Virus record (IMG/VR): IMGVR_UViG_3300022758_000169
Length of the DNA stretch: 39,612 nucleotides
Reading direction: 5' to 3' (one strand)
From: a virus
Lineage: Duplodnaviria > Heunggongvirae > Uroviricota > Caudoviricetes
In this document: positions 25,083 to 25,667 of the stretch, piece by piece
How positions within the stretch are numbered: the first letter of the stretch is position 1
How the letters are laid out: every line of letters starts with the position of its first letter
Translations under genes and position numbers: made by a program
The notes under the pieces: generated by a model
Database searches by the model: none
Told to the model about the DNA's origin: nothing
What the model saw: the letters and a program-made list of their open reading frames with translations, nothing else

Positions 25083-25667
25083 ATGAAAAGTATCCAGGAC
25101 GTCCGCAGGCAAAATCTCAACGACTTGATCGACCGTGAATTCAATGGTGTTCAGACGCGGATGGCAGAAAAACTTGGAACTCAGGCAAATCTGGTAAACC
25201 GCTGGGCTCTTGGCAAGAAGGTTATCGGCGACCAGGTTGCGCGAAAAATTGAAGCTGCCGCCAATAAACCCCGTAACTGGCTTGATATCGATCGCTCGCT
25301 TTCTCAGGAAGGTTTTCAGCCTGTCGGCCCAAGCGACATTGGTCAGCTGGCGGCTCACAACCTGGAACGCTGGATGAGCGAAAGCCGCGACCTTTCAACA
25401 CAGGGAAAACTTCACCGCGCATCCGGCGTCGCCCAGGTGACAATCAGCCGCCTGTTAAACAATGAGGTCAGCGTTTCCATTTCCACCCTGGAGAATGTTG
25501 CATCCGCATTCGGGCGTCACGGCTATGAATTACTGATTCACCCGCACGACCCTGCGACTATCAACTATGACCGCTCGCGCTACGCATTGTTACCCGAAAC
25601 AGAGAAGGCAAAGATCGAAAGTTACATTGAATTTGTCATCAGCCAGAACGAAAGAAGCAAACAATAA
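25083..25667 (+). CDS. repressor-like protein with two HTH regions, no recognisable S24 peptidase domain
   Basis: 194-aa ORF divergent from the cro-like gene; two HTH-like segments; no Ser/Lys peptidase-like C-terminal domain recognised by eye. Confidence 0.55.
   Translation: MKSIQDVRRQNLNDLIDREFNGVQTRMAEKLGTQANLVNRWALGKKVIGDQVARKIEAAANKPRNWLDIDRSLSQEGFQPVGPSDIGQLAAHNLERWMSESRDLSTQGKLHRASGVAQVTISRLLNNEVSVSISTLENVASAFGRHGYELLIHPHDPATINYDRSRYALLPETEKAKIESYIEFVISQNERSKQ

What the first reader, a model, noticed from the sequence alone, without database searches (positions are those of the whole stretch)
25083..25667. Repressor candidate has no recognisable autocleavage domain while the genome carries three or four antirepressors
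The 194-aa protein has two HTH-like segments and I could not recognise a LexA/CI-type S24 peptidase module by eye. Combined with multiple antirepressor genes under sRNA and operator control, this suggests induction by antirepressor rather than RecA-stimulated self-cleavage, as in Gifsy-type and P22 immI-type circuits. I found no canonical LexA box upstream of the ant genes.
Basis: inference. Interest (0 to 1): 0.55.

Follow-up and report, generated by a model that had tools for sequence, protein, structure and literature searches.

The report
Known non-cleavable phage repressor with antirepressors

Summary
ORF 25083-25667 (+) encodes 194 aa with two HTH regions and no S24 peptidase. The window is an epsilon15-like podophage (Uetakevirus), about 97-98% identical to phiV10, TL-2011b, ZX5 and HEMP4. 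The protein is 100% identical to an E. coli prophage protein. It aligns end to end with the crystallised Salmonella phage SPC32H repressor Rep (PDB 5D50_A, E 4.5e-42).

The cognate 85-aa antirepressor Ant (5D50_E, E 4e-47) lies at 37557-37814. Three larger genes carry the same Ant module at their C-terminus, fused to AntA (29889-30545) or BRO-N (both window ends; the right copy is frameshifted). Each follows a P1 c4-type antisense RNA whose loop matches that gene's own ribosome-binding site. Rep operators (TTACC-N5-GGTAA) occur 16 times against 0.8 expected.

The missing LexA box is real but misleading. All 123 relatives' sites carry a canonical box on the ant promoter. This window has that box with a private 1-nt deletion, dropping the PWM score from 27.6 to 8.1 bits. 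The window also has 11 other private small indels, several of which break conserved genes. The deletion may therefore be a sequencing error, or a derepressed variant like SPC32N.

Verdict: correct interpretation of an already known system; low interest.

The parts
25083..25667 (+). rep: 194-aa lysogeny repressor. N-terminal HTH DNA-binding domain (about 1-72), linker, and C-terminal HTH-fold domain (about 91-190). No protease domain.
   Evidence: ORF. Pfam HTH only. Full-length match to SPC32H Rep 5D50_A, E 4.5e-42. 100% identical to the repressor-position protein of an APEC prophage. phiV10 and epsilon15 records annotate it as a two-HTH putative repressor.
25688..25707 (+). Terminator-like hairpin after rep.
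   Evidence: Terminator annotated at the same place in phiV10.
24962..25026 (.). Operator cluster between rep and the divergent cro-like gene: 24962-24976, 25012-25026, and a weaker site read by eye at 24994-25008. Carries three private +1 insertions at 24978, 25010 and 25033.
   Evidence: Promoter-like sites on the minus strand overlap the operators.
25724..25800 (.). Two Rep operators (25724-25738 and 25786-25800) flanking a TTGACA-17-AATTAT promoter for the leftward-early (exo/recT) operon.
   Evidence: epsilon15 has three annotated repressor-binding sites in the equivalent region.
24695..24925 (-). cro-like gene (epsilon15 gp39 homologue), split by a private +1 C insertion at 24861.
   Evidence: Two tblastn pieces in different frames. 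Alignment. phrog_35 hit.
37557..37814 (+). ant: 85-aa small antirepressor, orthologue of SPC32H Ant.
   Evidence: 5D50_E, E 4.1e-47, 73 of 83 aligned residues identical. 100% identical to the APEC prophage protein. Lies next to the tailspike gene as in SPC32H.
37519..37538 (.). Remnant of the LexA box on the ant promoter: TACTGTATAAATAT^CAGTTA, with one A missing after 37532.
   Evidence: Aligned to the SPC32H/epsilon15 box. All 123 relatives' sites are canonical. 74 of 74 aligned relatives have the extra base. PWM 8.1 bits against 27.6 for relatives.
37467..37481 (.). Rep operator upstream of the small ant promoter.
   Evidence: Aligns with the repressor-binding site annotated in epsilon15.
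29759..29848 (+). C4-like antisense RNA (Rfam sRNA-Xcc1). Its loop CUGUUUGU (29813-29820) is complementary to ACAAACAG at 29681-29688 (leader) and 29872-29879 (Shine-Dalgarno region).
29889..30545 (+). AntA-domain antirepressor (218 aa) whose C-terminal 75-80 residues are an SPC32H-Ant module.
   Evidence: Pfam AntA. 42% identity to small Ant, E 1e-15. 5D50_E, E 1.5e-13. phrog_377 and phrog_450 hits.
1..683 (-). BRO-N::Ant-module antirepressor. ATG at 668-666 or GTG at 683-681. Cut by the window end 14 codons before the expected stop.
   Evidence: Orthologue of ZX5 ORF4.
717..952 (-). Control region of the left BRO-N ant: Rep operator 938-952, isrK-like leader 825-901, C4 RNA 717-800. On the minus strand the C4 loop is CCACUUAG (752-759) and the targets are CUAAGUGG at 853-860 and 680-687.
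38679..38952 (+). Control region of the right BRO-N ant: Rep operator 38679-38693, isrK-like leader 38730-38806, C4 RNA 38825-38912. C4 loop CCUUUGUAG at 38869-38877. Targets CUACAGAGG at 38771-38779 and CUACAAAGG at 38944-38952.
38961..39612 (+). Second BRO-N::Ant-module gene, frameshifted (private indels at 39108, 39127, 39181) and cut by the window end at the same codon as the left copy.
1100..1498 (+). Remnant of a P22-type Ant: N-terminal domain only, 132 aa.
   Evidence: Pfam P22_AR_N, E 5e-44. Matches only the first part of CUS-3 ant.

Best explanation
ORF 25083-25667 is the lysogeny repressor (Rep) of an epsilon15-like temperate podophage.

Architecture. It is a two-domain protein: an N-terminal HTH domain that reads DNA, a linker, and a second HTH-fold domain used for oligomerisation and antirepressor binding. 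There is no protease module, so RecA cannot make it cut itself.

Repression. It binds the palindrome (A)TTACC-N5-GGTAA(T). That palindrome marks the rep/cro divergent promoters, the early-left promoter just downstream of rep, and the promoters of the antirepressor loci.

Induction. The switch works through the 85-aa Ant protein at 37557-37814. In the family, the ant promoter is covered by a LexA box and preceded by a Rep operator. DNA damage activates RecA, LexA cleaves itself, Ant is made, Ant binds Rep and takes its tetramer apart, and the lytic promoters open.

Extra antirepressors. Three further genes carry the same Ant module at their C-terminus, behind a BRO-N or AntA domain. Each is locked by its own c4-type antisense RNA, which pairs with its ribosome-binding site. 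These most likely act as P1-immI-like anti-immunity or cross-talk functions, not as the SOS sensor.

Basis. Shown here: homology, domain content, operators, sRNAs and their complementarity, and the state of the LexA box. Taken from work on SPC32H and ZX5: non-cleavage, Ant binding, LexA control. Inferred: that the fused Ant modules also bind Rep.
For: - Full-length match to SPC32H Rep 5D50_A, E 4.5e-42. The epsilon15 record cites the same structure.
- Only HTH families and no S24. No Ala-Gly or Cys-Gly site.
- Small Ant matches 5D50_E at E 4.1e-47 and occupies the same genomic position as SPC32H ant.
- 16 operator sites against 0.77 expected, including sites annotated as repressor-binding in epsilon15.
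- A canonical LexA box on the ant promoter at all 123 relatives' sites.
- PMC7380047 and PMC9638917 summarise the SPC32H mechanism.
- In ZX5, overexpressing ORF21 repressor abolished free phage, and overexpressing ORF4 BRO-N antirepressor lowered lysogens about 1000-fold.
- Ant-module homology of the large proteins.
- C4, isrK and sRNA-Xcc1 hits. Three different loop/target pairs, each target present at a leader site and at the RBS.
Against: - Rep is only 53% (N-terminal domain) and 39% (C-terminal domain) identical to SPC32H Rep. No experiment exists on this exact protein for non-cleavage or Ant binding.
- In this window the LexA box is damaged. As sequenced, the SOS input is not evident.
- The primary SPC32H papers could not be read here. 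Their details rest on secondary citations and my own recollection.
Confidence: 0.9

Rival explanations
1. This particular genome is a derepressed, effectively lytic variant. The 1-nt deletion in the LexA box makes ant constitutive, as the C-to-A change does in SPC32N. The spacing changes in the rep/cro operators add to the loss of immunity.
For: - The deletion is absent from 74 of 74 aligned relatives and from all 123 relatives' sites.
- None of the 516 matching E. coli records or 16 phage records matches the 71-nt query across its full length without a gap.
- No exact match to the deletion variant in IMG/VR, GTDB representative genomes or JGI metagenomes.
- The PWM score falls to 8.1 bits, well below SPC32N's 18.9.
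- Unlike most other private indels, it is not in a homopolymer.
- 5 of the 12 private indels fall within 850 bp around rep.
Against: - The window has 12 private 1-2-nt indels, mostly in homopolymer runs. They also break the cro-like gene, recT and a gp14-like virion core gene. That looks like sequencing or assembly error, and it would cripple a lytic phage.
- The regulatory region carrying the insertions has no substitutions at all against a prophage relative.
Confidence: 0.3
2. The large BRO-N and AntA proteins do not act on this phage's own Rep. They target repressors of other co-resident prophages, or have another role for their N-terminal domains, and the shared C-terminal module serves only for oligomerisation.
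For: - The AntA N-terminal part with its sRNA is shared with Stx-phage antB genes that carry a different C-terminus. The modules therefore shuffle.
- Trans-acting antirepressors are documented for the Gifsy prophages (Lemire 2011, cited).
- SPC32H Ant is a tetramer, so the module could mainly provide oligomerisation.
Against: - The module is 42% identical to the cognate small Ant over its whole length.
- It occurs in a narrow family tied to these phages: 62 representatives in 1.8 billion proteins.
- The ZX5 BRO-N orthologue reduced ZX5 lysogeny when overexpressed.
- Rep operators sit upstream of both BRO-N loci.
Confidence: 0.25
3. The 194-aa protein is cleaved or degraded during SOS by a route that needs no S24 domain, for example RecA-stimulated cleavage at a cryptic site or Lon/ClpXP degradation. 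In that case the antirepressors are accessory.
For: None from the sequence. It cannot be excluded by computation alone for this exact protein.
Against: - No S24 domain, no cleavage-site dipeptide and no Ser-Lys protease context.
- The SPC32H homologue is reported not to be cleaved; its induction works through Ant (Kim & Ryu 2013, cited; the non-cleavage detail is from my own recollection of that paper).
Confidence: 0.03

Closest known systems
SPC32H Rep/Ant antirepression system (Salmonella podophage; Kim & Ryu 2013 J Virol; Kim et al. 2016 PNAS; PDB 5D4Z and 5D50)
   Same: - Same phage genus and same gene positions.
- Rep aligns full length (E 4.5e-42) and Ant is 88% identical.
- Same operator palindrome and the same Rep operator upstream of ant.
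- LexA box on the ant promoter in all relatives.
   Different: - Rep is only 39-53% identical by domain.
- This genome has three extra Ant-module genes, where SPC32H has only the small one at that locus.
- The LexA box here has a 1-nt deletion.
epsilon15 gp38 and phiV10 p40 (putative repressors) and ZX5 ORF21/ORF4
   Same: - About 97-98% DNA identity to phiV10 and ZX5.
- Already annotated as a two-HTH repressor.
- ZX5 repressor and BRO-N antirepressor were tested by overexpression.
   Different: - Those genomes carry one BRO-N ant gene; this one has two inverted copies plus an AntA fusion next to int.
- The AntA fusion is also found in HEMP4 and in 23 E. coli genomes.
P1/P7 immI (c4 antisense RNA - icd - ant)
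   Same: - Rfam C4 hits at 78.6 and 66 bits.
- The sRNA lies upstream of ant in the same transcript direction.
- The loop is complementary to a leader site and to the RBS.
- Specificity differs between copies, as between P1 and P7 (c4 mechanism in PMC12197685).
- A repressor operator sits at the promoter.
   Different: - No icd gene.
- The antirepressor is a BRO-N or AntA fusion with an SPC32H-type module, unrelated to P1 Ant.
- The repressor is Rep, not C1.
Gifsy-1/-3 and Fels-2 repressors with LexA-controlled antirepressors; coliphage 186 Tum
   Same: Same logic: a non-cleavable repressor, with SOS sensed through LexA repression of a small antirepressor. isrK-type leaders are also found next to the Gifsy-1 antirepressor anrP.
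   Different: No sequence relationship was tested or apparent. Kim & Ryu described the SPC32H Ant as structurally distinct from those antirepressors (my recollection of their abstract).
P22 immI (ant, mnt, arc, sar)
   Same: An N-terminal fragment of a P22-type Ant is present at 1100-1498.
   Different: It is truncated to 132 aa. No mnt, arc or sar was found beside it, and P22 C2 is itself an S24 self-cleaving repressor. This is not the operative model here.

Membership tests
SPC32H/epsilon15-type Rep (non-cleavable two-HTH repressor) | Full-length sequence homology to the crystallised Rep. | tested here: met
   5D50_A, E 4.5e-42, query 1-190 against chain 2-197.
SPC32H/epsilon15-type Rep (non-cleavable two-HTH repressor) | Two HTH-fold domains and no peptidase domain. 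| tested here: met
   Pfam HTH_3 with two stretches, a YdaS-like HTH at 21-61, and no S24 at E<=10.
SPC32H/epsilon15-type Rep (non-cleavable two-HTH repressor) | Family operator palindrome at the immunity region and at ant. | tested here: met
   16 TTACC-N5-GGTAA sites against 0.77 expected. They coincide with sites annotated in epsilon15.
SPC32H/epsilon15-type Rep (non-cleavable two-HTH repressor) | Cognate small Ant encoded next to the tailspike gene. | tested here: met
   37557-37814, 5D50_E, E 4.1e-47.
SPC32H/epsilon15-type Rep (non-cleavable two-HTH repressor) | LexA box overlapping the ant promoter. | tested here: not met
   The box is present but has a private 1-nt deletion (CTG-N9-CAG), scoring 8.1 bits against 27.6 in relatives. 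The deletion may be a sequencing error. This is a regulatory feature of the system, not of the protein.
SPC32H/epsilon15-type Rep (non-cleavable two-HTH repressor) | Rep stays intact during SOS, and Ant binds it and disassembles its tetramer. | not testable with these tools
   Needs western blot, EMSA and binding assays. Known for SPC32H.
LexA/CI-type S24 self-cleaving repressors | Peptidase_S24 domain with a Ser-Lys dyad. | tested here: not met
   No S24 hit. No G[DNES]SM motif in the protein, and none in a protease-like context elsewhere in the window.
LexA/CI-type S24 self-cleaving repressors | Ala-Gly or Cys-Gly cleavage site in a linker. | tested here: not met
   Neither dipeptide is present.
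P1/P7 immI c4-controlled antirepressor loci (for the large ant genes) | c4-family antisense RNA upstream of ant. | tested here: met
   Rfam C4 at 78.6 and 66 bits (gathering score 45). sRNA-Xcc1 at 64.8 bits (gathering score 53) at the third locus.
P1/P7 immI c4-controlled antirepressor loci (for the large ant genes) | The sRNA loop is complementary to the RBS region of ant and to a leader site. | tested here: met
   Three loci with three different 8-9-nt loop/target pairs, each target occurring twice. Whole-length duplex energies were not clearly better than shuffles.
P1/P7 immI c4-controlled antirepressor loci (for the large ant genes) | Homology of the Ant protein to P1 Ant, and presence of icd. 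| not tested
   No P1 Ant sequence was compared. The domains found are BRO-N or AntA plus the SPC32H-Ant module, so the resemblance is in mechanism only.
P22 immI | Full-length P22-type Ant with mnt/arc repressors and sar RNA. | tested here: not met
   Only a 132-aa P22_AR_N fragment. No sar hit in Rfam. An Arc-like gene is present in TL-2011b but was not seen here.

The most novel reading that the evidence does not exclude
As sequenced, this genome has lost the SOS input. The LexA box on ant carries a unique 1-nt deletion. The genome still carries four copies of one Rep-binding module under different locks: one controlled only by Rep, and three by c4-type antisense RNAs of three distinct specificities. 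If the deletion is real, this is a natural SPC32N-like derepressed or SOS-blind Uetakevirus. If the fused modules all bind Rep, one repressor-binding domain has been spread over several N-terminal domains and RNA locks, forming a multi-input anti-immunity network.
Probability: 0.3. Interest if true: 0.4.

Novelty: already known. Interest (0 to 1): 0.15.

Why it matters
It matters little for discovery. The mechanism was worked out genetically and structurally in SPC32H, and partly tested in the near-identical E. coli phage ZX5.

It has practical value for annotation:
- This repressor family occurs in about 10% of complete E. coli genomes (561 of 5426), yet is labelled only 'helix-turn-helix domain-containing protein'.
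- Its small Ant is labelled 'hypothetical protein', and PHROGs lists its family (phrog_450) as 'unknown function'.
- The Ant module fused to BRO-N or AntA is not recognised by Pfam.

The private LexA-box deletion would matter only if it is real. It would then mark a constitutively derepressed variant, which is relevant when choosing phages for therapy or biocontrol.

Tried and rejected
- Primary papers. Kim & Ryu 2013, Kim et al. 2016 and Kropinski 2007 are not held in the library. I used secondary citations, database records and my own recollection, marked as such.
- Other LexA boxes. A CTGT-N8-ACAG scan with one mismatch gave 14 hits against 13.7 expected, none upstream of the large ant genes. 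The PWM scan found no site within the range of known boxes.
- Promoter scan. The consensus scan found no promoter upstream of the small ant. I therefore place the promoter by homology with SPC32H only.
- sRNA duplex energies. Whole-length RNA duplex energies between the sRNAs and their targets were not clearly better than shuffles. I rely on the exact loop/target matches instead.
- Word-indexed protein search. The search with the Ant module returned only 23 mostly short hits and said little about fusion partners. The exhaustive profile search was more useful.
- P22 immI as the operative model. Rejected, because only a truncated Ant fragment is present.
- A circular join of the window ends. Rejected. 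It would create a perfect palindrome and a nonsense read-through ORF.
- Structure prediction. Not run, because a crystal structure of a full-length homologue exists.

Full report
**What the window is.** The immunity region (24300-26300) is 97-98% identical to the Escherichia phages HEMP4, vB_EcoP_ZX5, TL-2011b and phiV10. Similar sequence occurs in 561 of 5426 complete E. coli genomes. These are epsilon15-like temperate podophages of the genus Uetakevirus. Gene order matches phiV10 and an APEC prophage integrated next to guaA.

**The observation.**
- ORF 25083-25667 (+) is real: ATG start, 194 aa, followed by a terminator-like hairpin.
- Pfam at E<=10 returns only HTH families: HTH_3 with two stretches (best 106-147), HTH_26, and a YdaS/Cro-like HTH at 21-61. 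There is no Peptidase_S24. NCBIfam and PHROGs give only repressor/HTH families.
- The protein has no Ala-Gly or Cys-Gly dipeptide.
- A six-frame motif scan found no S24-like catalytic motif in a plausible context anywhere in the window.
- The protein is 100% identical to the corresponding protein of the APEC prophage.
- The phiV10 record already describes its homologue as having 'two helix-turn-helix motifs; similar to putative repressor epsilon15p38'. The epsilon15 record calls gp38 'repressor' and cites PDB 5D50_A.

**What it is.** A search of solved structures settles it.
- The protein aligns over residues 1-190 with residues 2-197 of chain A of 5D50, the repressor (Rep) of Salmonella phage SPC32H (E 4.5e-42). 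Its C-terminal half also matches the separately solved Rep fragment 5D4Z.
- Identity is 53% in the N-terminal domain and 39% in the C-terminal domain.
- The partner is present too. The 85-codon ORF at 37557-37814 matches chain E of 5D50, 'Anti-repressor protein', at E 4.1e-47, with 73 of 83 aligned residues identical. It lies divergent from the tailspike gene, exactly as ant does in SPC32H.

**The known mechanism.** For SPC32H, SOS induction leads to LexA self-cleavage and synthesis of an antirepressor that inhibits the repressor by protein-protein contact (Kim & Ryu 2013, summarised in PMC7380047). Rep binds DNA as a tetramer, and tetrameric Ant binds two Rep dimers and breaks the tetramer (Kim et al. 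2016, summarised in PMC9638917). From my own recollection of those abstracts, Rep is not cleaved during SOS, Ant contacts the Rep C-terminal domains, and the N-terminal domain reads DNA. I could not open the primary papers. In E. coli phage ZX5, about 98% identical here, overexpressed ORF21 repressor abolished free phage. Overexpressed ORF4, a BRO-N antirepressor, cut lysogens about 1000-fold (PMC9782041).

**Operators.** The palindrome TTACC-N5-GGTAA occurs 16 times with at most one mismatch, against 0.77 expected. The sites fall in intergenic control regions:
- between rep and the divergent cro-like gene (24962, 25012);
- flanking a TTGACA-17-AATTAT promoter just downstream of rep (25724, 25786);
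- upstream of the small ant (37467);
- upstream of both BRO-N ant loci (938, 38679);
- before several operons.

The ant and early-left sites coincide with 'repressor' binding sites annotated in epsilon15.

**The antirepressor inventory.** Four genes carry the SPC32H-Ant module:
1. the small ant at 37557-37814;
2. a 218-aa AntA-domain protein at 29889-30545;
3. a BRO-N protein on the minus strand from 683/668 to the left window end;
4. a second BRO-N gene from 38961 to the right window end, which is frameshifted.

The C-terminal 75-80 residues of the large proteins are 42% identical to small Ant (E 1e-15). They hit 5D50_E at E 1.5e-13 and match phrog_450, the small-Ant family. A fifth gene at 1100-1498 is only the N-terminal domain of a P22-type Ant.

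An exhaustive profile search shows the module family is small: 62 representatives among 1.8 billion proteins. It occurs both free-standing (about 83-95 aa) and as the C-terminus of proteins of 150-319 aa. The AntA-fusion locus next to int is also in HEMP4 and in 23 E. coli genomes. Its N-terminal half, with the sRNA, is shared with Stx-phage antB genes that have other C-termini. This points to modular exchange.

**sRNA control.** Rfam finds C4 and isrK in tandem upstream of each BRO-N gene, and sRNA-Xcc1 upstream of the AntA gene. Reading the sequences shows the P1 c4 logic (c4 mechanism in PMC12197685).

| Locus | sRNA loop | Targets |
|---|---|---|
| Right BRO-N | CCUUUGUAG | CUACAAAGG 9-17 nt before the ATG; CUACAGAGG in the leader |
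| Left BRO-N | CCACUUAG | CUAAGUGG, present twice |
| AntA | CUGUUUGU | ACAAACAG, present twice, once overlapping the Shine-Dalgarno sequence |

Each target occurs once in the leader and once at the ribosome-binding site. Three different loop/target pairs amount to covariation and imply three specificities. The closest precedent is P1/P7 immI, not P22 immI.

**The LexA box.**
The best is 10.7 bits, and the weakest box in my reference list scores 13.2. That list is from memory.
- Aligning the ant promoter with epsilon15, SPC32H and SPC32N shows why. SPC32H has TACTGTATGTTTATACAGTG. SPC32N, which Kim & Ryu reported to make Ant constitutively, has C-to-A in the CAG. This window has TACTGTATAAATAT-CAGTTA, with one base missing, giving CTG-N9-CAG.
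- All 123 matches to the box pattern in IMG/VR contigs and phage records have the canonical spacing.
- 74 of 74 aligned relatives have the extra A.
- None of the 516 matching E. coli records or 16 phage records matches the 71-nt query across its full length without a gap.
- The deletion variant has no exact match in IMG/VR, GTDB representative genomes or JGI metagenomes.
- The PWM score drops from 27.6 bits (close relatives) and 25.2 (SPC32H) to 8.1, far below SPC32N's 18.9.

**Is the deletion real?** I cannot tell. The window carries 12 private 1-2-nt indels over 36.4 kb of alignable sequence, mostly in homopolymer runs.
- They split the cro-like gene (24861), recT (27440) and a gp14-like virion core gene (8276).
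- Four +1 insertions lie within 175 bp of the rep/cro control region. That stretch has no substitutions at all against the APEC prophage.
- This pattern fits sequencing or assembly error better than biology, and a lytic escape mutant should not lose cro.
- The LexA-box deletion is not in a homopolymer, which keeps the SPC32N-like reading alive. I put it at about 0.3.

**Verdict.** This is an established system in a well-sampled phage genus, so novelty is 'already known' and interest is low. The residual points of interest are the private LexA-box deletion, and the spread of one Rep-binding module over several N-terminal domains and antisense-RNA locks.

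Noticed in passing
window 8276, 24861, 24978, 25010, 25033, 25706, 27440, 29321, 37533, 39108, 39127, 39181: Twelve 1-2-nt indels are private to the window, against 3 to 74 aligned relatives. Most are in homopolymer runs. They split the cro-like gene, recT and a gp14-like core protein gene. This suggests sequencing or assembly errors, or a decaying element.
   Followed up: partly
window 1-431 and 39182-39612 (third copy 30290-30502): The window ends are inverted repeats (431 nt, 92%). Both stop at the same codon of an Ant module, 14 codons before the stop seen in the complete copy. The contig probably broke inside convergent ant paralogues, so a short piece of the genome is missing.
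   Followed up: partly
window 11949-11958: The gene for the epsilon15 gp10-type capsid staple protein is absent. It is 324 nt in phiV10 and in the APEC prophage. Only about 10 nt separate its two neighbours here.
   Followed up: no
window 29759-29848: The Rfam 'sRNA-Xcc1' hit behaves like a c4-type antisense RNA for an AntA antirepressor gene. The same sRNA plus AntA N-terminus is shared at 82-91% with antB loci of Stx and lambdoid phages.
   Followed up: partly
window 1524-2086 and 37837-38600: Two genes for membrane-anchored proteins, of 175 aa and 242 aa (the latter with CxxC/Stc1-like motifs), share a 90-nt inverted repeat covering their 5' ends. Each is preceded by a Rep operator (1524-1538 and 38586-38600). 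Function unknown.
   Followed up: no
window 37557-37814 versus 25083-25667: Between the E. coli and Salmonella (SPC32H) members, Ant is 88% identical but Rep only 39-53%. This asymmetry is unexpected for binding partners.
   Followed up: no
window 17349-17368: The best LexA-like site in the window (TGCTGTAAACCAGTACAGCC, 10.7 bits, below the range of known boxes) lies between the tRNA (17160-17233) and the ORF at 17386-17856, where relatives have a Gp49-family gene.
   Followed up: no
window 37557-37814: PHROGs v4 lists the small-Ant family (phrog_450) as 'unknown function', and RefSeq calls it 'hypothetical protein', although the SPC32H Ant structure and function are published. Pfam has no model for the module.
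   Followed up: yes
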